Assembly (NCBI GenBank): GCA_005239895.1 | Contig: SBBB01000016.1 | Span: forward strand, 1-47,137 | DNA: 47,137 nucleotides | Source of the DNA: a bacterium | GTDB lineage: Bacteria > Patescibacteriota > Patescibacteriia > SBBB01 | Direction: 5' to 3' | Part shown: piece by piece, positions 15,101 through 46,937 of the stretch | How positions within the stretch are numbered: the stretch's first letter is position 1 | Layout of the letters: each line of letters starts with the position of its first letter | Notes under the pieces: generated by a model | Seen by the model: the letters and a program-made list of their open reading frames with translations, nothing else | The model's database searches: none | What the model was told of the DNA's origin: nothing | Made by a program: the position numbers and the translations under genes

Positions 15101-15136
15101 TGTGAGGTTTCGTCACGATCGCGACGAAGCGTCACG
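15101..15136. repeat. 36-bp palindrome with a CGATCGC centre
   Basis: tgtgaggtttcgtcacgatcgcgacgaagcgtcacg. Confidence 0.55.
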
Positions 15137-19466: not shown

Positions 19467-19649
19467 GCTTCTAAGCTTTTATATAACATTTATTTCATTC
19501 ATATCTACATATTAAAAAGCTAAATTCATTAGCGTTGTTTGGATGCGTTTTCTTGACATTTTTAAAGTATGTTGTATGCTTAGGAAAGGGTTGTTTTTTC
19601 TTACAAACAACTATTAACCACTAAATAACAAGAAGGATTAAGGAGGATT

Positions 19650-19805
19650 ATGGAACCAATTAGTATAATTGAAGTATTGCAACGCAGGCTTGAAATAGTT
19701 GAAAAAGAGCGCGATGATGCTATACAAAAACTCAACGCAGCTCGCGCAGAAATTGAAACCCTTAAAAAACAAGCTTATGAACGTACACTAGGAGCGCACT
19801 CTTAG
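19650..19805 (+). CDS. 51-aa coiled-coil orphan peptide
   Basis: TTGACA-16-TATGCT promoter, SD AAGGAGG; MEPISIIEVLQRRLEIVEKERDDA... Confidence 0.6.
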   Translation: MEPISIIEVLQRRLEIVEKERDDAIQKLNAARAEIETLKKQAYERTLGAHS

Positions 19806-19844
19806 TAATTTAAACATTTTCTTGGATCAAAATAAGGAGACAAC

Positions 19845-20003
19845 ATGCCTAAAAAACTAGCACCGAAAAAGATCAAAAAAGAAAGCACGTTCGCTGACAG
19901 ATTTAACGCAGACGACCCAAACTACGAAGAAGAGTATGAGTTAAAAAAACCAGACGAAGACGGAAACGATATTATTGAATGGAATCCAGAAAATGGAGAG
20001 TAA
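19845..20003 (+). CDS. 52-aa orphan peptide, basic N-terminus and acidic C-terminus
   Basis: SD AAGGAG; terminator GCGCTAC/GTAGCGC-TTT downstream. Confidence 0.55.
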   Translation: MPKKLAPKKIKKESTFADRFNADDPNYEEEYELKKPDEDGNDIIEWNPENGE

Positions 20004-20071
20004 AAAAGCAAACAATAATGGCGCTACCAGATATTATCAGTAGCGCTTTCGGGTTTTTAAAAATTATCACC

Positions 20072-20243
20072 TATCATTCCCGACCTGATCGGGAATCCAG
20101 GTTATCAAATCTTCAGCCCTGAGGTACTTAGAATCGATAGGTTGAAAGTTTAAAAAAATAGTTACTTTATTAACTTTCTACTTATTGCTTTCTACTTTCA
20201 AACCTTAAAGACTGGATCCCCGGGTCACGGCCCGAGGATGACA
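20072..20243. repeat. REP/dRS3-like inverted doublet
   Basis: TCATTCCCGACCTGATCGGGAATCCAG ... CTGGATCCCCGGGTCACGGCCCGAGGATGACA. Confidence 0.75.
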
Positions 20244-20263
20244 AATAAAAATACAAACCAGAT

Positions 20264-20479
20264 CTAACGCTTTGATTTTTTTAATTTAAGCATTTCAATT
20301 AAAGCGGAAATAATAAACACAACTTGCAAAGTTGAGAAAATTATATCTTTAATACTTACACTATAAATAAGCAAAGAAACACCTCCGATTATAAACAGTA
20401 GATCTTGTCTTTTTTCAGATTTTATCCAAACTGCAACAGATATAATAATTAAACCAATGATTCCAAAAATTATAAACAT
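20264..20479 (-). CDS. Small 3-TM membrane protein
   Basis: 71 aa, three hydrophobic segments. Confidence 0.7.
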   Translation of the reverse strand: MFIIFGIIGLIIISVAVWIKSEKRQDLLFIIGGVSLLIYSVSIKDIIFSTLQVVFIISALIEMLKLKKSKR

Positions 20480-20573
20480 AAAGTTAATTTAAGAATTTAA
20501 TTCAATAATAACACAAATTAAATCCATCTAAAATAGTGTATTGTTTTTAAACATCCTTATACTATATACCATC

Positions 20574-20609
20574 GTCTACAGCGATCTGCGATAGCAGAGT
20601 TGTGTAGAC
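20574..20609 (+). repeat. 36-bp hairpin repeat, copy 1
   Basis: GTCTACA gcga TCTGCGATAGCAGA gttg TGTAGAC. Confidence 0.85.
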
Positions 20610-20642
20610 ACAGCACGTACAAATATATTATAATATAATTAT

Positions 20643-21119
20643 ATGATGAACAATACAATCAGCGATCATTTAATAGCTTATTTATTATCTTGCCGCTCTT
20701 TAACAATATATAGACAAATATTATGGTGGCGATTGAAAAAAAGACTAGATACCGCTAAACAAAAAAATTTTAGACAAAATCTCTATCGATTAAATAAAAA
20801 AGGTGCTATAAAAATAAACGGCAATCTTATTCATTTAAATAAAAAAGTACTCACTAATTATACAAAAAGAAATAACTTAGTAACGATTAAAAAATATCCA
20901 ATTAAAACTGAAGAAATTTTAATTTCTTTTGACATACCAGAAGACAAAAAGAAGATTAGAGAATGGCTTCGTAGACAAATCAAATATTGGAATTTTAAAA
21001 TGGTTCAAAAAAGCCTGTGGTCTGGATTTGGTCCTGTACCAAAAGACTTTAAAGAAAAACTTAAAGAGTTGGGTGTTGAGAAAAACATTAAAATATTTAA
21101 ACTAAATAAAAAATTATAA
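20643..21119 (+). CDS. wHTH + Cas2/VapD-like (PaaX-family) protein
   Basis: N-terminal FRQNLYRLNKKGAI helix-wing; C-terminal LISFDIPEDKKKIREWLR..FKMVQKSLW Cas2/PaaX-M motif. Confidence 0.75.
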   Translation: MMNNTISDHLIAYLLSCRSLTIYRQILWWRLKKRLDTAKQKNFRQNLYRLNKKGAIKINGNLIHLNKKVLTNYTKRNNLVTIKKYPIKTEEILISFDIPEDKKKIREWLRRQIKYWNFKMVQKSLWSGFGPVPKDFKEKLKELGVEKNIKIFKLNKKL

Positions 21120-21130
21120 TATTTTGGTGC

Positions 21131-21166
21131 GTCTACAACACTACGCGATAGCAGAGAGTTGTAGAT
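21131..21166 (+). repeat. 36-bp hairpin repeat, copy 2
   Basis: GTCTACA aca CTACGCGATAGCAGA gagt TGTAGAT. Confidence 0.85.
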
Positions 21167-21251
21167 ACTATCTATCACCTATTGATAAAAAATATTTAAA
21201 TATGTTAAAGTAAATTTGCTTATCCTATCATGCGATAGGACACGTAAAAAT

Positions 21252-21700
21252 ATGGAAATAAAAGATTCACCGCCAAAAATACCTTTCGCCACTTATCAAG
21301 TTGGCTTAAAAATTCTGCTCAAAAAAGAGGACAAGTTTTTATTCCTAATAGATAGTAGTACTGGATTTTTAGATTTACCAGGTGGGCGTATAGACGAAAT
21401 TGAGCACGAAACCCAGCTTACTGAAATTATCGCTAGAGAAGTAAATGAAGAGCTCGGAGAAAACATAAAATACAAATTAGGAAAACCTATTTTTCAATTT
21501 CGCAGGTAGAACAATAAAAAAAGGAATGCACTTTTATTACAGTATACGAAGCTGAATATTTGTCAGGTGAAGTTAAATTATCTCATGAACATAGTAATTT
21601 TCAATGGGTTAATTCTAAAGAAATGAACTGGCCCGCAGATCGCTTTTTTAATAAAGAAGAATATGAAGCTTTTAAAAAATATTTTGAAGCTTTGAGTTGA
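21252..21700 (+). pseudogene. NUDIX hydrolase interrupted by TAG (21507) and a -1 shift at A7 (21516-21522)
   Basis: LDLPGGRID..AREVNEELG Nudix box; downstream frame FITVYEAEYLSGEVKLSHEHSNFQWV. Confidence 0.75.
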
Positions 21701-21704
21701 TTAT

Positions 21705-22451
21705 ATGATTTTAAAAAATAAAAAAATTTTAATAACTGGTGCTTCGAGTGGTATAGGTCAAGCCATAGCTATGGCTTGCGCTCAAAAAAGAGCCACAGTT
21801 ATTATTAATTATAGAAAAAATCTTAAAGGAGCCAAACAAACCTTAGAAGAAGTTGAAAAACACTCTAAAGGATTTATTTTTCAAGCGGACTTAACTAATG
21901 AAAAACAAATTCAAAAAATGTTTACGGGTATTGCCAATAAAACTGGGAAAATAGATATTTTAGTAAATAATGCTGGCGACGCGCAACCTGGAGACTTTTT
22001 TAATAATCAAAACTGGCAAGATCAATTTGAAAATATTTTCTTTTCAGCTTTACATACTTCTCAAAAATTTCTGGGACAAAATAAAAAATCTCCTTTGAGA
22101 AAAATTTTAAATATCACCTCGTACTACGGAACTATTGGTGGAGGTAATCCAGAATTCTTTGCCTATTCTGTAGCTAAAGCTGCCTTAGCAAGTATGACTG
22201 TTGCGCTTGCAAAAACTGATGGTAAAATTTTAGTAAATGCTGTTGCGCCAGGATACACCTGGACTCCACCTTGGGAAGGAATATCTGTAGCTGAAAAGAA
22301 AATTTGCGAAGCAAAAGTAATGATCAATAGATATGTAACTGCGAATGAAATTGCTCACGCAGTGGTTAGTATTCTGGAAAATAATGCTATTACAGGACAA
22401 ATTATTACTGTGGATGGAGGCCTATCTTTACAAAAACTAGAGAAAAAATAA
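21705..22451 (+). CDS. SDR-family oxidoreductase
   Basis: TGASSGIG, NNAG, YSVAK, VAPG, VDGG. Confidence 0.9.
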   Translation: MILKNKKILITGASSGIGQAIAMACAQKRATVIINYRKNLKGAKQTLEEVEKHSKGFIFQADLTNEKQIQKMFTGIANKTGKIDILVNNAGDAQPGDFFNNQNWQDQFENIFFSALHTSQKFLGQNKKSPLRKILNITSYYGTIGGGNPEFFAYSVAKAALASMTVALAKTDGKILVNAVAPGYTWTPPWEGISVAEKKICEAKVMINRYVTANEIAHAVVSILENNAITGQIITVDGGLSLQKLEKK

Positions 22452-22628
22452 AAATTCATATATAAATTATAGGATTGCATGCAATTTCTTATAATCAGAG
22501 AGGTGAAACTAACCACACACCTCCCTTAGTGATATAAAAATGTTCTTGACTTTTTGACAAAAGTGTTAAAATATTTAAACTAAACTAAATAAAAAATATT
22601 ATAGTTCATATAAATATGGTTTTGATGC

Positions 22629-22664
22629 GTCTACAGTACTAGGCGATAGCAGAACATTGTAGAC
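22629..22664 (+). repeat. 36-bp hairpin repeat, copy 3
   Basis: GTCTACA gta CTAGGCGATAGCAGA acat TGTAGAC. Confidence 0.85.
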
Positions 22665-22682
22665 ACTAAAATTATCCATTCT

Positions 22683-23774
22683 TCATATCTTCATATTTAT
22701 CTCAACAAATTTTTTAAGCACAATATAAAATTGTTCTAGACTGTTCATATCAACCCATTCATTTTCACTGTGGTGACCTCCACCCCTTGGTCTAGTTAAA
22801 ATTGTTTGAATGCCTTTATCTAGAAAAAATCTAGCGTCGGATGAGCCATGAGAATGAATAAATTTCTGTTTAATCTTAAGCTGATCATATACAATTTTAG
22901 AAAAAGCTTTAATGTAATTATTTTTAATATCAATACTATAATTATTCCCAAATGAAATTTCTTTAATAGTTATGCCTTTATAATTCTTAAGAATGGCCTG
23001 AAATATTTTTTCTAACCTTGGTTTGGAAGAAGCTGAAGCAATGCGAATATCAATCATAGCCGAAGCATAATTTGGTATCTGATTTGTTGATTCTCCTCCT
23101 TTTATTTTACCAATATTAAAAGTATCGTGAATATGATCTTTAGTGCAACAAGGTTCTTTTGGAAATTGTTTCTTAATAATAAACAAAAAATCAATCAACT
23201 CCTCTATAGAGTTTTTACCTGACCATGGACGTGAAGCATGCCCTGATTTTCCTTGACTCTCAATTAATAGGTGCCACACGCCTTTAGCCGACACTTCTAG
23301 TGCAAAATTTTTACCCCCATCTGGTAATATACACAAGTCCGAACTGTAACCACTGGACAGCAAGGCCTTAACACCGTTATGACCTCCTATTTCTTCGTCA
23401 GTTGTAATCATTATTCCTGTACTATATTGTGGCAGCCTTTTCCCCAATTCTTGAAAAAGTTTTAAATAACATGCAATAGCAAATTTCATATCAAAAACAC
23501 CGCGACCATAAATGCAATTGTTTTGTAATTTAGGTTGAAATGTTTTTTCAGAACCATCAACAACATCAAGATGCGCTTGAAGCCACAACTTTGGTTTTTT
23601 TGTTTTTTGGGTAGTAATTAACAAAGATGAAAAATTATTCTTTTTATAATCAGTAATATAAACTGGCACTGTTTTTAATTGAGTTTTTATCCAAGCTATG
23701 GCTTTTTCATTTTCCAAATAATTACCAGTAACAGTTTTAAAAGCTATTAATTTTAGTAATGTTTTAGCTAACAT
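22683..23774 (-). CDS. M20 family metallopeptidase/deacylase (ArgE/DapE-like)
   Basis: AHLDVV, YGRGVFDMK, DEEIG, GHAS, SDARFF, HSENE. Confidence 0.88.
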   Translation of the reverse strand: MLAKTLLKLIAFKTVTGNYLENEKAIAWIKTQLKTVPVYITDYKKNNFSSLLITTQKTKKPKLWLQAHLDVVDGSEKTFQPKLQNNCIYGRGVFDMKFAIACYLKLFQELGKRLPQYSTGIMITTDEEIGGHNGVKALLSSGYSSDLCILPDGGKNFALEVSAKGVWHLLIESQGKSGHASRPWSGKNSIEELIDFLFIIKKQFPKEPCCTKDHIHDTFNIGKIKGGESTNQIPNYASAMIDIRIASASSKPRLEKIFQAILKNYKGITIKEISFGNNYSIDIKNNYIKAFSKIVYDQLKIKQKFIHSHGSSDARFFLDKGIQTILTRPRGGGHHSENEWVDMNSLEQFYIVLKKFVEINMKI

Positions 23775-23905
23775 ATATTATAAATATAAATTATATCTAA
23801 ATTAGATATTACGCTCTTTTATTGTACAAACTGAAACGTGTTTTGTATATAGATTTCTTGGGGCATGTACACTCTAACATGCCCCAAATTTACCGGCAAC
23901 CAATT

Positions 23906-24811
23906 TCATTCCACTATAAGCGGCCCACTGACGGTATTCGTCGCTCCGTGTAAACGAAGACTTGGTCCTGCCATCCATAAACCGCCAATACACTTCCATT
24001 GCTCCTTATACTTTTCGCGAATCCGTTGCTCTTTAACTGACCAAACAAAAAACGGCCGATAAATCATCCAGGGATAGTTAGGAAAATCTGTAGACATTGG
24101 TAACAACAAATACTGACAATACATTTGCTGATAAAGATTCAAAGCTTTTTTAATGCGCTCTTTTGTTGAACACCCAAATCTTCGACGAGGGTCCCAAATC
24201 TCCAATCCCAAACATTTACTTCCGCTTAAAGGTTTTAAAGCAAAACCGCGATTCCAAGGGAGATCTTCAAAATCAGAGACACAAACACGATACCAAAAAC
24301 CCATCCTCAGACCATAACCCTTATTACCTTTGGCCTTTAACGAACTAACCGAACAAGATTCTAAATAACTATACTCTGTCTCATCTGGTTCAGCCCTAAC
24401 TAAAACTAAAGATCTGGATGATAAAGATTGTTCAGTCTGAGCCCATAAAGAATCATCTCCGTCCAATGAACGCTTTGGAGAAACAATAACCTTAAACTTG
24501 GGCCAAATACTCTTTGCAATTTCTAATCTGGTTTTAAAATCAGTGTTAATCAAACCACACAATCCAACTCCAGATGGTCTTTCCTCTACCTCATAAATAC
24601 CCAGCTTCCCATTATGAACAACACAATCTAATCTAATAATCAGAGATGGCACATTATACTTTTTTTGAATCCAAGTAGTTTCTCTCTCAAAAAGATCAAC
24701 CCATTGATCGATCATTTCTAGAGATTGCTCAACCAAGTCTTGAGTAAAAACTATGGCTGTAGTTGTGGTTTGTACTTTCCATGTCCCGATCTGAATCATC
24801 TTGATATCCAT
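23906..24811 (-). CDS. Putative ATP-grasp amide ligase (glutathionylspermidine synthase / circularly permuted type)
   Basis: IRLD..IYEVEERPSG, ALKP..GS, MIYR..IGG; SD AAGGAGG; terminator TTGGGGCATGT/ACATGCCCCAA after the stop. Confidence 0.55.
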   Translation of the reverse strand: MDIKMIQIGTWKVQTTTTAIVFTQDLVEQSLEMIDQWVDLFERETTWIQKKYNVPSLIIRLDCVVHNGKLGIYEVEERPSGVGLCGLINTDFKTRLEIAKSIWPKFKVIVSPKRSLDGDDSLWAQTEQSLSSRSLVLVRAEPDETEYSYLESCSVSSLKAKGNKGYGLRMGFWYRVCVSDFEDLPWNRGFALKPLSGSKCLGLEIWDPRRRFGCSTKERIKKALNLYQQMYCQYLLLPMSTDFPNYPWMIYRPFFVWSVKEQRIREKYKEQWKCIGGLWMAGPSLRLHGATNTVSGPLIVE

Positions 24812-24839
24812 TCTTTTCTTCCTCCTTAAAAAGGTTAAC

Positions 24840-24870
24840 AAAAAACTGGCCTCACCATGAGACCAGTTTT
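24840..24870 (-). terminator. Intrinsic terminator in the 5' leader of the ATP-grasp gene
   Basis: AAAACTGGTCTCA-TGG-TGAGGCCAGTTTTTT. Confidence 0.7.
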
Positions 24871-24895
24871 AGAAGCAGAAATTTTAATAAAATAA

Positions 24896-25024
24896 TTATA
24901 AATTAGTATTACTTCCGCGCCCTAAAGCTAGCCTCAGGAAGAGGCGTAAGTAATGCCAATAACCCAAACAAAGACCGTTTGATTGTAAAAAATTTAATTG
25001 TTTGTTTCCTTTTTCTTTAAACAT
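24896..25024 (-). CDS. 42-aa leader ORF MFKEKGNKQLNFLQSNGLCLGYWHYLRLFLRLALGRGSNTNL
   Basis: Directly downstream of a TTGACA-17-TATGAT promoter (25039-25067); overlaps a long hairpin. Confidence 0.4.
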   Translation of the reverse strand: MFKEKGNKQLNFLQSNGLCLGYWHYLRLFLRLALGRGSNTNL

Positions 25025-25102
25025 ATAACAATTTATTAATCATAACAAAAACCATAAAAAATGTCAAGACGTGGGTTTTGTAAATATCAAAATTGACTGC
25101 AA

Positions 25103-25426
25103 CTACTTACATTCCTTGTCTATCCACTGTAAATACTTTTCAAAGCCAGAATTTATAGGAATCATAATTATCTCTGGCGTTTCATAATCATGATTAGAAA
25201 TCATATCCTTTTTAACATTTTTATAAAGGGACTTTTTGGTTTTAATGAAAAGCAGTTTTTCGGCAGCAGAATTAACACGACCTTTCCAATGATAATAACT
25301 TTTAATATTTTGCACTTGGGCGCATGCAGCCAAACGTTTGGCAAGCAATGAATCAATAATCTTTTTACCTGTACTTTCTTTGCTAAATGTTGTGACTACA
25401 ATGCAATACTTATTTTTTACAGGCAT
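25103..25426 (-). CDS. cutA: Divalent cation tolerance protein CutA
   Basis: LAACAQ, SYYHWKG, HDYETPEI, YLQWI. Confidence 0.9.
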   Translation of the reverse strand: MPVKNKYCIVVTTFSKESTGKKIIDSLLAKRLAACAQVQNIKSYYHWKGRVNSAAEKLLFIKTKKSLYKNVKKDMISNHDYETPEIIMIPINSGFEKYLQWIDKECK

Positions 25427-25499
25427 AAATTATTTTATTATCTTAACTTAATTATACCAAATTATTGACTAAATATATATTAACCTGTAATGTAATATA

Positions 25500-25713
25500 T
25501 TAGGAGGAGCAGAATATTTATTCTAAACTCTAATGCTACATCAAAATGTAGCCTATTAGGACGGTGAAGGAACTTGATCGTCAAGGGTTTTCCCTCCAAA
25601 GCGTCTACCCTCCAGACGCAAAACACACTCTTGGCGAGTAAACCTTCACCGTCCACCCCCATTATCATTATGGCCATCTCTCTTTCAGCATCAGAGAGAT
25701 GGCCAAGCTTTTT
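25500..25713 (+). ncRNA. Candidate structured small RNA
   Basis: TTGACT-17-TAATGT upstream, 12-bp closing stem with a multi-hairpin junction, 13-bp terminator stem plus T-run. Confidence 0.55.
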
Positions 25714-25741
25714 ATAAATTTTTGCTTTATTTTAAAAACAA

Positions 25742-26086
25742 CTAAACCGAAACAAGTCCAAAAACATCCTTTAAAGCACCAAGTTTCATACGCTTCCCAA
25801 CCCATTCCAGCGCTTCCATACATGTTATGGACTTACGCTCGTCTGTGGGAATAGACATATAAAACGTACCATCTGAGCAACGATACAAATATTCATAAGG
25901 AATACCTGGTGCTTCAAAACTACCAATATATTCTGGATTGTTTTCAGTTGCACGCCTGTACGCAACGCCAGTTTTTTTACAATATAACTTTGTTTTTATA
26001 ATATATGCCCTATATCCTGCTTTGGACATCTTTAGTAAAATATCTTCATTGAGTTGTTGTTCTTCTCTTTTTTCTAAAGTGTTCAT
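25742..26086 (-). CDS. Hypothetical protein
   Basis: SD AAGGAGG; TTGACA box abutting a MITE end at 26143. Confidence 0.6.
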   Translation of the reverse strand: MNTLEKREEQQLNEDILLKMSKAGYRAYIIKTKLYCKKTGVAYRRATENNPEYIGSFEAPGIPYEYLYRCSDGTFYMSIPTDERKSITCMEALEWVGKRMKLGALKDVFGLVSV

Positions 26087-26240
26087 CTGAACCTCCTTAT
26101 ACTACTATTATTAATTTAGACATAAAAACAGATATCTGTCAACCCCGTTAGAAGCTAAATTCAAATCATAATACACAAAATTGACATTACAATAAAATTA
26201 AAATACCATTTATTTAAAAGAATGAACATGAGACATTAAA

Positions 26241-27311
26241 ATGTTCACAACTATGAACGAAAAAATTCAAAATAGAATTTCGCAAGCTATAGAAAAAAAA
26301 CTATTTCCAGCTTGTGTGATTGGAGTAGTAAAAACTAATGGAAACAGGTTAATTGTGCCCAGTGGTAAATTCACTTTTGACACTAATGCATCTGTAGTTC
26401 AAGAAAACGCGATTTTTGACATTGCTTCTGTCACTAAATCAATTCCAACTTCGTCTTTAGCTCTAAAATTAATTGACAAAGGAAAACTAAATCTAGAAGA
26501 TAAATTAATAAATTTTATTCCTGAGTTTGGCAACTCAGACCGAAGAAACATTTTAATCAAACACTTGCTTACCCAGACCTTAGATTACAATTTTCGTTTG
26601 TCAGACTATAAAGACAAATCACCCGAAGAAATTTTAAATGTTATTTTTACCACTGAATTTAAAAGCAAACCAGGAACTAAATTTTTCTACACCAATGCCA
26701 CTAGCATCTTATTAGGCTTAGTAGTGGAACAGGTTTTTGGCACACCATTGGACCAACTGGCTAGCAAGTATTTTTTTGAGTCACTAAAAATGACACGAAC
26801 CACATTTAATCCATTGCAAAAATTTAAAAAAGAGGAAATTATACCCACTGAAATTCAAGACTGGCGAGGGGGACTAGTTCAAGGAGAAACTCATGACGAA
26901 ACTGCTCACATATTAAATCAAAAAATGATCCCAGGATCAGCTGGAGTATTTTCAACTGTTCCAGACTTATTAAATTTCTTAGAAATGCTATTAAACAATG
27001 GTTCGCTAGCTGGCAAACAATATTTTTCAGCTGAAATTATTAAACAAATACAAACAAATCAATTGTCCGGTATTGGGTACAGTGCTGGTTTAGGATGGGA
27101 ACTAAATCAACCTAGGTATATGGGTAAATATTGTAGTCCTAAAACTTTTGGCAAAACCGGCTTTACAGGTTGTTCTTGTGTATGTGATATTAAAAAGGGG
27201 ATTGGTTTTGTTATTCTATCAAACTATACTTATCCAAATCGCAAAACAGACTTTGCGTCTATCAATAAATTTAGAAGCGACATAGCTGATATTATTTTTG
27301 AAAATTTATAA
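26241..27311 (+). CDS. Serine hydrolase, beta-lactamase/AmpC-like family
   Basis: ASVTK (SxxK), YTN, HLLT, FGKTGFTG. Confidence 0.88.
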   Translation: MFTTMNEKIQNRISQAIEKKLFPACVIGVVKTNGNRLIVPSGKFTFDTNASVVQENAIFDIASVTKSIPTSSLALKLIDKGKLNLEDKLINFIPEFGNSDRRNILIKHLLTQTLDYNFRLSDYKDKSPEEILNVIFTTEFKSKPGTKFFYTNATSILLGLVVEQVFGTPLDQLASKYFFESLKMTRTTFNPLQKFKKEEIIPTEIQDWRGGLVQGETHDETAHILNQKMIPGSAGVFSTVPDLLNFLEMLLNNGSLAGKQYFSAEIIKQIQTNQLSGIGYSAGLGWELNQPRYMGKYCSPKTFGKTGFTGCSCVCDIKKGIGFVILSNYTYPNRKTDFASINKFRSDIADIIFENL

Positions 27312-27314
27312 AAT

Positions 27315-28088
27315 ATGAAACTTATAACTTTGAACATTTGGGGTGGTAAAATTTTCAAACCCTTAATTGAATTTTTAAAACGCCATGCTGATAATATAGA
27401 TATTTTTTGTTTTCAAGAAGTTTTTCATACTACAACTAATATTACAGAAAGTAATGACGCGCGCACTAATACTTTGAAGGAAATATCTGACATACTGCCA
27501 GATCATATTGGATATTTTACACCTGAACAAAACGGGTTTAACCTCCAAGAAAAAGTAAACTTTGATCTAGTTAGTGGCAATGCGACCTTTATTAGAAAAA
27601 CAACACCTGTTCTGAGTAATGGAAATGTTTTTGTATATGGAAGTCTAAATTCTATGCCCGACCTTACTCAAAAATGGAATCTTATGCCACGAAGCATATC
27701 GCACATCCAATTTCAATCTGGTAATACGCTAACCACTGTTTTTAATTTTCATGGTTTATGGAATAATCTTGGGAAAATGGATACTAACAGCAGATTGCAA
27801 CAATCACAAAAAATCAATGATTACATTTCTAAATTTCAAAACTCAAATATAATTCTTTGCGGTGACTTCAATTTATTGCCAGAAACAAAAAGCCTGTCTA
27901 TGCTTGAAGTGAGTATGAAAAACTTAATAAAAGAATATAATATTACTTCCACTCGAAGTAGCTATTATACAAAACCAAATAAATTCGCAGACTATATTCT
28001 TGTATCGCCACATTTAAAAGTAAATGACTTTCAGGTTTTACAAGATGAAGTGTCAGATCATTTGCCATTATTTTTAGATTTTGAATAA
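27315..28088 (+). CDS. Endonuclease/exonuclease/phosphatase family protein
   Basis: TLNIW, CFQEV, GDFN, DYI, SDHLP. Confidence 0.88.
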   Translation: MKLITLNIWGGKIFKPLIEFLKRHADNIDIFCFQEVFHTTTNITESNDARTNTLKEISDILPDHIGYFTPEQNGFNLQEKVNFDLVSGNATFIRKTTPVLSNGNVFVYGSLNSMPDLTQKWNLMPRSISHIQFQSGNTLTTVFNFHGLWNNLGKMDTNSRLQQSQKINDYISKFQNSNIILCGDFNLLPETKSLSMLEVSMKNLIKEYNITSTRSSYYTKPNKFADYILVSPHLKVNDFQVLQDEVSDHLPLFLDFE

Positions 28089-28301
28089 TAACCAAACCTT
28101 CACAATATTTCACAACTAACAAATGTAAGAAACTAGCGCCATCGCACAAACTTCTTACATTTATATAAAAATAATGAAATATAAATATACAAACATTGCA
28201 TCATCTTCAAATTACTATTCTCGCTATATTTTGGTTTATTATTTCAATAAATATATTTAACCGGGCAGTAAGAAAATACGAAAGTTTTAGTTTTATAACT
28301 T

Positions 28302-28342
28302 TTGGAAATTAAACTTCCGACAATTGGGATTAAACTTCCGAT
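28302..28342. repeat. Tandem pair of short palindromes TTGGRA(A)TTAAACTTCCGA
   Basis: ATTAAACTTCCGA occurs twice, 21 bp apart, immediately before 36-bp repeat copy 4. Confidence 0.5.
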
Positions 28343-28349
28343 TTGAAGC

Positions 28350-28385
28350 GTCTACAATACTACGCGATAGCAGATGACTGTAGAC
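28350..28385 (+). repeat. 36-bp hairpin repeat, copy 4
   Basis: GTCTACA ata CTACGCGATAGCAGA tgac TGTAGAC. Confidence 0.85.

Positions 28386-45378: not shown

Positions 45379-46937
<1,559 letters not shown>

What the first reader, a model, noticed from the sequence alone, without database searches (positions are those of the whole stretch)
20574..28385. Lone Cas2/PaaX-like gene bracketed by exact-36-bp hairpin repeats, with further dispersed copies: candidate undescribed repeat/nuclease system
Seen: four copies (20574, 21131, 22629, 28350), all 36 bp and all in the same orientation, consensus GTCTACA-N7-GCGATAGCAGA-N4-TGTAGAY, with conserved ends and core but variable linkers. Copies 2-4 also share flanks (TTTGRWGC left, RCTA right). 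Copies 1 and 2 lie 33 bp before and 11 bp after the 158-aa wHTH + Cas2-like (FDIPE..VQKSLW) gene and enclose nothing else. Copies 2-3 enclose NUDIX + SDR. All copies are intergenic. Known: 36 bp is a common CRISPR repeat length, Cas12a repeats end in TGTAGAT, and Cas2/VapD folds are nucleases; no cas1, integrase or transposase is present here. Inference: (a) a minimal mobile unit or REP-RAYT-like pair in which the protein recognises and spreads its hairpin, (b) cassette boundaries like integron attC sites, or (c) operators or RNA-processing sites (copy 1 sits just after a TATACT -10).
Basis: partly seen in the sequence, partly recalled or inferred. Interest (0 to 1): 0.85.

Follow-up and report, generated by a model that had tools for sequence, protein, structure and literature searches.

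The report
Mini-PaaX repressor gene bracketed by operators
The 36-base hairpin repeats are most likely the DNA binding sites of the small PaaX-type regulator gene that they flank, and this gene-plus-palindrome unit recurs across many ultra-small (Patescibacteria) bacteria.

Summary
Four GTCTACA-N22-TGTAGAY copies lie at the stated places, against 0 expected in shuffles. The genome (831 kb) holds 14 such copies, all intergenic, and about 45 palindromes of 36 bp in four families.

The 158-aa protein is a winged helix plus the Cas2-like middle domain of PaaX. It lacks PaaX's C-terminal effector domain. E. coli PaaX binds TGATTC-N27-GAATCA, which has the same architecture as these repeats.

I examined 194 homologous genes from other Patescibacteria in three non-overlapping sets. 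In these sets, long palindromes with CGATCG, CGGCCG or GCTATAGC centres are 16-23 times denser within 200 bp of the gene than in the rest of the loci. They lie upstream in 88 of 179 genes and just after the stop in 99 of 181. Each paralogue has its own arms.

Upstream copies sit in a fixed register with an extended -10 element. In the window, the right arm of copy 1 supplies the -35 of the best promoter-like site.

Best reading: an autoregulated mini-PaaX repressor with private operators. The downstream and orphan copies are not promoter-linked and remain unexplained. I found no support for a CRISPR, integron or RNA reading. Mobility could not be tested.

The parts
20574..20609 (+). Palindrome copy 1 (family A): proposed autoregulatory operator. 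Its right arm overlaps the -35 of the gene's promoter-like site.
   Evidence: Exact pattern match. -35 TAGACA at 20605-20610. Folds at -8.3 kcal/mol as ssDNA, better than all 200 shuffles.
20605..20634 (+). Promoter-like site: TAGACA, 18 nt, TATAAT. The ATG lies 8 nt after the -10, so the mRNA would be leaderless or nearly so.
   Evidence: Best of the 20 promoter-like sites in 20300-22800, with 11 of 12 matches. This is a consensus match only, in AT-rich DNA.
20643..21119 (+). [quoted passage not shown]
   Evidence: Pfam PF20803 at 6.8e-10. AF2 model at pLDDT 84.3 with a wHTH and a beta-alpha-beta-beta-alpha-beta domain at residues 91-154. Foldseek rank 1 is E. coli PaaX 8a39, followed by Cas2 chains. 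A profile search of PDB puts 8a39 first at 2e-4.
21131..21166 (+). Palindrome copy 2 (family A), 11 nt after the stop codon: the downstream bracket of the module.
   Evidence: Homologues carry a palindrome just after the stop in 99 of 181 genes.
21216..22451 (+). NUDIX gene (frame broken at an A-run near 21513-21522) and an SDR gene, enclosed by copies 2 and 3.
   Evidence: Pfam. Three-frame translation.
22629..22664 (+). Palindrome copy 3 (family A), between the convergent 3' ends of the SDR gene and the M20 peptidase gene: an orphan copy with no promoter context.
28124..28159 (.). 36-bp palindrome of family F (TGTAAGAAAC...GTTTCTTACA type), 35 nt after the Exo_endo_phos gene.
   Evidence: Two more copies lie at C22:13614 and C23:29879.
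28350..28385 (+). Palindrome copy 4 (family A), an orphan between two + strand genes.
15101..15136 (.). 36-bp palindrome related to family D (CGTGACA...CGATCG...TGTCACG).

Best explanation
The gene at 20643-21119 encodes a minimal member of the PaaX repressor family. It has a winged-helix DNA-binding domain joined to the Cas2-like domain, which in PaaX is the dimerisation domain. It has no effector-binding C-terminal domain.

Inferred mechanism: a dimer binds the 36-bp palindrome GTCTACA-N22-TGTAGAC. The two winged helices would sit on the outer 7-bp arms and the Cas2-like dimer over the conserved centre. Binding has not been shown.

Copy 1 overlaps the -35 of the gene's own promoter, so the protein would shut off its own transcription. 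This is how E. coli PaaX acts at its Px promoter.

Copy 2, directly after the stop codon, and the other 12 copies of the family are further binding sites. My best guess for them is that they insulate the module or block read-through transcription, or loop with the upstream site. That step is inferred and weak.

The unit of palindrome, gene and palindrome, with arms private to each paralogue, is conserved across Patescibacteria.
For: 1. Homology. PaaX_M scores above its cut-off. E. coli PaaX 8a39 is the top hit by both profile and fold, over 159 columns. The second paralogue in the genome matches TIGR02277 PaaX at positions 37-138.

2. Operator architecture. The review PMC9493321 (passages read) gives the EcoPaaX site as TGATTC(N27)GAATCA and states that PaaX represses its own Px promoter by steric hindrance. 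Here the site is 7-bp arms with N22 between them. One homologue (L027) has TGATTC-N26-GAATCA.

3. Conserved linkage in three sets that share no identical protein. Palindromes with at least 14 of 18 pairs:
- Set 1, 70 of the 140 places listed: upstream 32/66, downstream 41/68, both 22/64. Density is 3.23/kb near the gene against 0.20/kb in the rest of the loci.
- Set 2, 41 metagenome loci: upstream 20/32, downstream 19/33, both 10/24. Density is 3.05 against 0.14/kb.
- Set 3, 83 genes in 80 of 170 loci: upstream 36/81, downstream 39/80, both 18/78. Density is 2.72 against 0.12/kb.

4. Private specificity. Paralogues within one genome have different arms (G100 and G044). The window's genome has a second intact paralogue (C6:182906-183490) bracketed by family E palindromes. 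Arm identity tracks protein identity (r = 0.19, 0 of 2000 permutations), but arms are shared only at 70% aa identity or more.

5. Promoter register.
- Among 51 upstream palindromes, 22 -10-like hexamers start 10-15 nt beyond the gene-proximal end, 9 of them with TGn. Elsewhere the count is 6.7 per 6-nt window.
- In the closest subfamily, the palindrome ends 7-9 nt before the start codon in 20 of 28 cases. By my reading of the rows that one search prints, its outer arm plus two bases reads as an extended -10. That call made no count of this.
- In the window, TAGACA-18-TATAAT scores 11 of 12.
Against: - No binding or expression data exist for this protein.
- Downstream copies show no promoter beyond them: 3 -10-like hexamers in register against 4.9 expected. 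They occur whichever way the next gene points: 20/29 for convergent and 20/38 for co-directional neighbours.
- In the window's genome, the palindromes are not depleted between convergent genes: 10 convergent, 26 tandem and 7 divergent, against a baseline of 71, 286 and 91. A plain regulon of promoter operators would not look like this.
- Where the up and down copies of one gene differ, 20 of 61 differing pair positions are compensated on both arms, against about 2 expected by chance (the expectation is my own estimate). G012 orphans are perfect palindromes with compensated variants. That points to a constraint on symmetry beyond protein contacts. Template-switch correction of quasipalindromes could produce it without selection (PMC7202029, listing and start of abstract only).
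- D97, at the position of the Cas2 catalytic Asp, is invariant in 37 sequences, so an enzymatic role is not excluded.
- Family D has about 16 well-kept copies but only a 15-codon remnant of a cognate gene.
- Promoter calls in 33% GC DNA are weak evidence.
Confidence: 0.62

Rival explanations
1. A REP/RAYT-like selfish or domesticated repeat system. The wHTH-Cas2-like protein recognises its palindrome as a hairpin or cruciform. Through the Cas2-like domain it nicks or helps to copy it, spreading orphan copies. The flanking copies are the ends of the unit.
For: The layout is that of RAYT genes: the gene is flanked by cognate palindromes and there are dispersed intergenic orphans. The orphans take any intergenic context. 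Arm changes are compensated. The Asp at the Cas2 catalytic position is invariant. Some orthologue pairs lose similarity right at a palindrome (L042/L044 downstream; L043/L046 and L049/L058 upstream). Family D keeps its copies without an intact gene.
Against: The protein is homologous to a known repressor, and its site has that repressor's architecture. The upstream copy is locked to the promoter. Other orthologue pairs are syntenic on both sides (L100/L116, L093/L096). Copy numbers are low: 2 in G100, 5 in G211 and 14 here. In the window's genome the inner positions pair poorly, and family E keeps conserved C.C and T.T mismatches. The genome has real Y1 transposases flanked by other hairpins.
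Confidence: 0.13
2. The palindromes act mainly on their own, as hairpin or cruciform elements at gene boundaries (terminators, insulators or replication-linked structures). The regulator merely uses one of them as its operator.
For: Many copies lie within 0-30 nt of a stop codon. Ten lie between convergent genes. Gene-flanking copies in other genomes are often perfect 18-bp arms: 24 of 107 upstream and 17 of 120 downstream.
Against: No terminator-like site (hairpin plus T-run) is found in 20300-22800. There is no excess of G.T over A.C mismatches on the sense strand (71 against 68 downstream, 61 against 72 upstream), which argues against an RNA hairpin read in the gene's direction. The arms are private to each paralogue and track it, which a generic structure would not need. 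Copies 3 and 4 fold no better than many shuffles.
Confidence: 0.12
3. Cassette boundaries like integron attC sites. Genes between two copies are exchangeable cassettes, and orphans are empty sites.
For: Several genes or gene pairs lie between two copies of one family: the regulator gene; NUDIX + SDR; MerR + DUF4325 on C17; three D copies on C2; and C5:73562/75350. At one syntenic locus the flanks are 92% identical while the module gene is only 67% identical (L012 against L085).
Against: There is one tyrosine recombinase in the genome, on another contig. The palindromes are 36 bp and symmetric, unlike attC. No joint between copies appears in the contigs of the source sample (contigs cannot show rare forms). 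The enclosed genes point either way.
Confidence: 0.05
4. Remnant or dispersed CRISPR-type repeats served by a lone Cas2.
For: The length is 36 bp, the ends are TGTAGAT-like, and the protein has a Cas2 fold.
Against: Cas1 is not found in the genome. The spacings are 557-5721 bp. The Cas2 models score below their cut-offs. The protein aligns to PaaX over its whole length.
Confidence: 0.01

Closest known systems
PaaX, the phenylacetyl-CoA-responsive repressor of E. coli and Pseudomonas (PDB 8a39, 3l09)
   Same: A winged helix followed by the Cas2-like middle domain. The operator is made of short inverted repeats about 22-27 bp apart (TGATTC-N27-GAATCA, PMC9493321). It represses its own promoter by occupying it.
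   Different: This protein is half the size and has no C-terminal effector domain, so there is no evident ligand control. Its operators are near-complete 36-bp palindromes with a conserved CGATCG, CGGCCG or GCGATAGC centre. A second copy lies directly after the stop codon. There are up to 8 paralogues per genome, each with private arms. There are no paa genes nearby.
REP elements and their RAYT (Y1 HUH) transposases
   Same: The gene is bracketed by its cognate palindromes. Orphan copies lie in intergenic DNA. There are several families per genome, and arm changes are compensated.
   Different: The protein has no HUH or Y1 domain. Copy numbers are in the tens, not hundreds. The upstream copy is part of a promoter. 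The same genome has true Y1 transposase genes with other hairpins.
CRISPR Cas2
   Same: The ferredoxin-like fold, the Asp at the end of strand 1 and the Q-S-V-W type motif.
   Different: There is no cas1, no array and no leader. The domain is fused to a DNA-binding domain and scores below the Cas2 cut-offs.
Phage lambda cI between the operators OR and OL (recalled, not from a call)
   Same: A repressor gene lies between two sets of its own operators, which cooperate by looping.
   Different: In lambda the operators are 17-bp sites in triplets 2.4 kb apart, and each controls a promoter. Here a single 36-bp site sits on each side, about 0.55 kb apart, and the downstream one has no promoter.

Membership tests
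PaaX family repressors | [quoted passage not shown] | tested here: met
   The AF2 model has helices 6-16, 24-34 and 43-52 and a wing at 56-65. The profile hit to 8a39 covers residues 56-113. Foldseek rank 1 is 8a39.
PaaX family repressors | Central Cas2-like domain (PF20803) | tested here: met
   39.4 bits against a cut-off of 24.
PaaX family repressors | C-terminal PaaX_C domain that binds phenylacetyl-CoA | tested here: not met
   The protein ends 4 residues after strand 4 of the Cas2-like domain. No further Pfam hit.
PaaX family repressors | Score over the equivalog cut-off (TIGR02277) | tested here: not met
   No hit for this protein. The paralogue scores 40.3 bits against a cut-off of 264.55.
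PaaX family repressors | Operator of two short inverted repeats about 27 bp apart, placed on its own promoter | tested here: inconclusive
   The form and position fit. Binding cannot be tested with these tools.
CRISPR Cas2 | Cas2 fold with the conserved Asp after strand 1 | tested here: met
CRISPR Cas2 | Score over the curated cut-offs of PF09827 and TIGR01573 | tested here: not met
   21.5 against 23.8 bits. 21.9 against 24.5 bits.
CRISPR Cas2 | Partner cas1 and a repeat-spacer array | tested here: not met
   No Cas1 match in the genome, which is 97.8% complete. Repeat spacings are 557, 1498 and 5721 bp.
REP/RAYT | Y1 HUH transposase domain in the flanked gene | tested here: not met
   No PF01797 hit for this protein. 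Five such genes lie elsewhere in the genome.
REP/RAYT | Gene flanked by cognate palindromes, plus dispersed copies | tested here: met
REP/RAYT | Evidence of spread (insertion polymorphism between close relatives) | not testable with these tools
   No close relative was found. None of 40 class relatives carries the repeat. The metagenome DNA pattern scan gave 0 hits. The best protein identities are 44% and 53%.
Integron cassettes (attC) | Adjacent IntI-type tyrosine recombinase | tested here: not met
   The only PF00589 match is at C6:42271-42825, on another contig.
Integron cassettes (attC) | attC form: 57-141 bp, imperfect, with extrahelical bases (definition recalled) | tested here: not met
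   The elements are 36 bp and symmetric.

The most novel reading that the evidence does not exclude
The wHTH-Cas2-like proteins and their private 36-bp palindromes form a repeat-handling system and not just repressor-operator pairs. In this reading, the Cas2-like dimer measures and acts on the palindrome in hairpin or cruciform form, using the invariant Asp. It keeps the arms symmetric and seeds orphan copies. This partnership between a Cas2 fold and 36-bp palindromic repeats would be an evolutionary relative of the one in CRISPR adaptation.
Probability: 0.1. Interest if true: 0.9.

Novelty: new variant of a known kind. Interest (0 to 1): 0.55.

Why it matters
- Very few regulators are understood in Patescibacteria. 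If this reading holds, a two-domain PaaX relative would be a common regulator family there. My query found it in 52 of 401 genomes of the class, with up to 8 copies per genome.
- Its binding sites can be read straight from the DNA next to each gene. That makes regulons predictable in organisms that cannot be grown.
- The family would supply many natural, mutually distinct repressor-operator pairs of small size.
- The unexplained parts raise a testable question: whether a Cas2-fold protein does more with palindromic repeats than sit on them. Those parts are the copy after the stop codon, the orphans away from promoters, the symmetric co-variation of the arms and the invariant Cas2-type Asp.

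Tried and rejected
- Rfam at gathering threshold over the whole window found only the 16S rRNA gene.
- None of 40 class relatives carries GTCTACA-N22-TGTAGAC.
- The metagenome scan for the family A pattern gave 0 hits.
- The protein scan of metagenomes gave no relative above 44% identity, so the empty-site test could not be done.
- The look-up of sequencing runs listed only two runs of the probable source sample, plus one run of the same study holding next to none of the sampled words. No RNA holder was listed.
- Read laying on 19500-23500 showed the source contig, short pieces of other palindrome copies lying on copy 2, and no joints. All runs laid were contigs, which cannot show rare forms.
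- Complex prediction with two copies of the protein gave no verdict (score 0.13, mark 0.42). I count it neither for nor against a dimer.
- Covariation within the window's own families is weak. At positions 8-15, family D pairs at 0.65 against 0.57 in shuffles (15 of 2000 shuffles reach it). Family A pairs at 0.51 against 0.42 (11 of 2000). Family E pairs at 0.55 against 0.55.
- Reading the downstream copy as the operator of the next gene is rejected.
- The RNA-hairpin reading is weakened by the absence of strand bias in wobble-type mismatches.
- The genes beside family A copies show no clear shared function. They include an aminotransferase, MerR + DUF4325, HhH-GPD and several with no family.
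- Literature searches found no description of this module. No paper in the library holds both 'PaaX' and 'Cas2'. Subscription journals are not covered, so the paper behind the PaaX structure 8a39 was not seen. Supplements were not opened.

Full report
**The observation**

The four 36-bp copies are at 20574, 21131, 22629 and 28350 on the + strand, with 0.00 expected in 100 shuffles. Copy 1 ends 33 nt before the ATG at 20643, and copy 2 begins 11 nt after the stop at 21119. All four lie between the long ORFs.

The window is contig C1 of an 831,563-bp, 31-contig, 33% GC genome. Genome-wide there are 8 copies with the GCGATAGCAGA core: the four in the window, plus C6:172817, C19:6200, C23:14955 and C28:17479. 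Six more have the same GTCTACA/TGTAGAC arms but other cores: CACGAYCGTG at C17:1915, C17:3318 and C29:23094, and GCGGCCGC-like at C5:72291, C23:45350 and C23:50564. None overlaps an ORF of 80 aa or more. With 14 copies in 831 kb, two copies hugging one 477-bp gene is not chance.

**The protein**

- Pfam gives PaaX_M (the Cas2-like middle domain of PaaX) at 6.8e-10. Cas2 itself scores below its cut-off.
- NCBIfam gives cas2 below its cut-off for this protein. For the genome's second paralogue it gives PaaX over positions 37-138 of 279, far below the equivalog cut-off.
- A profile of 37 family members finds E. coli PaaX (8a39) first in the PDB at 2e-4. Cas2 chains follow at 1.5e-3 and weaker, among other winged-helix proteins.
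- The AlphaFold model (pLDDT 84.3) has a winged helix-turn-helix, a linker helix and a beta-alpha-beta-beta-alpha-beta domain at residues 91-154.
- Foldseek ranks 8a39 first, over 159 columns. Many Cas2 structures follow at probability 1.00.
- D97, R106, R110, S124 and W126 are invariant in the 37 sequences.

The protein is therefore PaaX without its C-terminal effector domain.

**What is known about PaaX**

The review PMC9493321 (passages read) states three things. The E. coli PaaX site is TGATTC(N27)GAATCA. PaaX represses its own Px promoter by steric hindrance. The Jannaschia structure 3L09 has a winged helix, a dimerisation motif and a C-terminal domain. The repeats here have the same form, with 7-bp inverted arms and 22 bp between them. 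One homologue's palindrome reads TGATTC-N26-GAATCA (L027).

**The link holds in other genomes**

The protein has relatives in 52 of 401 sampled genomes of its class, with 140 places in all and up to 8 per genome. I scored palindromes with at least 14 of 18 complementary pairs and a centre gap of 0, 2 or 4.

| Set | Source | Upstream (within 200 bp) | After the stop (within 160 bp) | Both | Density near gene | Rest of loci | Inside gene |
|---|---|---|---|---|---|---|---|
| 1 | 70 of the 140 places: the best per genome plus all copies in nine multi-copy genomes that I chose | 32/66 | 41/68 | 22/64 | 3.23/kb | 0.20/kb | 0.13/kb |
| 2 | 41 metagenome loci | 20/32 | 19/33 | 10/24 | 3.05/kb | 0.14/kb | 0.09/kb |
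| 3 | 83 genes in 80 of 170 genome-contig loci | 36/81 | 39/80 | 18/78 | 2.72/kb | 0.12/kb | 0.12/kb |

The sets share no identical protein, although some loci within set 2 are near-duplicates. The window's own copies score 13 of 18, so they count as misses in set 1.

The centres are mostly CGATCG, CGGCCG, CGACCG or CGGTCG, GCTATAGC, and GCGATAGC as in the window. Most of the palindromes are 36 bp long. The arms differ between genomes and between paralogues within one genome. Arm identity follows protein identity (r = 0.19, 0 of 2000 permutations), but the arms are shared only at 70% aa identity or more (0.83 against about 0.4).

**The window's genome repeats the rule**

- A second intact paralogue (C6:182906-183490, PaaX_M at 1.4e-21) is bracketed by family E palindromes, one upstream and two downstream.
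- A 15-codon remnant of a third paralogue (about C6:3805-3852) has a family D palindrome about 30 nt upstream.
- The genome holds about 45 such palindromes: about 16 in family D, 14 in A, 10-12 in E and 3 in F. All but 2 are intergenic.

**The upstream copy is part of the promoter**

- In the window, the best promoter-like site in 20300-22800 is TAGACA (20605-20610, the right arm of copy 1), 18 nt, then TATAAT (20629-20634). The ATG lies 8 nt further on.
- Among 51 upstream palindromes of sets 1 and 2, 22 -10-like hexamers start 10-15 nt beyond the gene-proximal end, with a peak at +13. Nine have TGn. Elsewhere the count is 6.7 per 6-nt window.
- In the closest subfamily (52 genes of 140-176 aa in set 3), 28 have an upstream palindrome. 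It ends 8 nt before the start codon in 15 and 7-9 nt before it in 20. By my reading of the rows that one search prints, the outer arm plus the next two bases reads TGnTAnnnT, which is an extended -10 for a leaderless message. That call made no count of this.

The operator therefore covers core promoter elements, as expected for autorepression.

**What does not fit a plain repressor**

- The copy after the stop codon has no promoter in register beyond it (3 against 4.9 expected). There is only a weak signal pointing back into the gene (6 against 3.3).
- It is present whichever way the next gene points (20/29 convergent, 20/38 co-directional).
- In the short subfamily it starts between -6 and +33 nt from the stop in 32 of 52 genes.
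- Orphan copies in the window's genome take intergenic contexts in about the baseline proportions: 26 tandem, 10 convergent and 7 divergent, against 286, 71 and 91. Few have a -10 in register.
- Orphan numbers vary between genomes: none for one G100 family, 3 in G211 and about 8 in G012.
- Where the two copies at one gene differ (19 loci), there are 61 differing pair positions. Of these, 37 differ on one arm only, 20 are changed on both arms so that pairing is kept, and 4 are changed on both arms without pairing. My estimate from the observed per-base difference is about 2 compensated changes by chance.
- The G012 orphans are perfect palindromes with three different pairs at one position.
- Mismatches show no strand bias (G.T 71 against A.C 68 downstream; 61 against 72 upstream). 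The symmetry is therefore a DNA-level property and not that of an RNA hairpin read with the gene.
- Template-switch correction of quasipalindromes is a known mutational route to perfect inverted repeats (PMC7202029, search listing and start of abstract only). It could explain the symmetry without selection. Selection on a hairpin or cruciform form remains possible.

**Mobility**

No close relative of this genome was available. Among orthologue pairs elsewhere, several are syntenic on both sides (L100/L116, L093/L096). Others lose similarity at a palindrome (L042/L044, L043/L046, L049/L058). At one locus the flanks are 92% identical while the module gene is only 67% identical (L012/L085).

Cas1 was not found. 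The only tyrosine recombinase is on another contig. The genome has five Y1 transposase genes. At least three are flanked by their own, different hairpins. One of these hairpin families has 19 copies and sits 45-80 bp from four of the GTCTACA copies.

**Verdict**

The finding is real, and the protein-repeat link is real and widely conserved. The best-supported mechanism is an autoregulated mini-PaaX with private 36-bp operators. The downstream and orphan copies, the arm symmetry and the invariant Cas2-type Asp are not explained by that mechanism alone. They keep a REP-like or repeat-handling reading alive at low odds. I found no description of this module in the papers searched.

Noticed in passing
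window 21216-21700: The NUDIX gene is split. The frame with the NUDIX box stops at 21509, and the C-terminal part continues in another frame after an A-run near 21513-21522. This could be an assembly error, a pseudogene or slippage.
   Followed up: partly
G000 C18:10860-11691; C29:3270-3975; C6:131234-131936: True REP/RAYT-like units. Genes with the Y1 transposase domain (PF01797; 5 over the cut-off in the genome) are flanked by their own 23-35-bp hairpins. The ATGTTTAGGAGTT..AACTCCTAAACAT hairpin has 19 copies genome-wide.
   Followed up: partly
G000 C17:1771-2011, C17:3173-3414, C29:22998-23190, C15:1-92: A composite repeat of about 240 bp: a REP hairpin, short tandem repeats, a GTCTACA-type palindrome and an E-like half palindrome. 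It lies at contig ends and on both sides of a MerR + DUF4325 gene pair, and it probably breaks the assembly.
   Followed up: partly
G000 C6:3805-3917: A remnant of a third paralogue: 15 codons, then a stop, 81% identical to the start of the window's protein. A family D palindrome lies about 30 nt upstream. Family D has about 16 copies and no intact cognate gene in the assembly.
   Followed up: partly
window 21216-21509 and 27315-28088; G000 C23:13976-14596: Three genes beside family A copies belong to families that often act in DNA repair or nucleotide cleansing: NUDIX, Exo_endo_phos and HhH-GPD. This may be chance.
   Followed up: no
L012 (G044) against L085 (metagenome contig): The flanking DNA is 92% identical over 348 bp. 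The regulator gene between the flanks is only 67% identical in DNA (60% aa) and has different palindrome arms. The module either evolves faster than its flanks or was replaced.
   Followed up: no
G012 C1 (L124-L128): This complete genome holds several families of perfect 36-bp palindromes with CGATCG or CGGCCG centres beside ordinary genes. Pairs lie 1.1 and 1.6 kb apart and enclose genes unrelated to the regulator.
   Followed up: partly
window 45379-46936: A 16S rRNA gene (Rfam RF00177, 1376.5 bits).
   Followed up: no
G000, whole genome: For a genome of 0.83 Mb it is rich in short dispersed repeats: 2229 self-matching blastn pieces of 27 bp or more, in several families of 30-200 bp.
   Followed up: no
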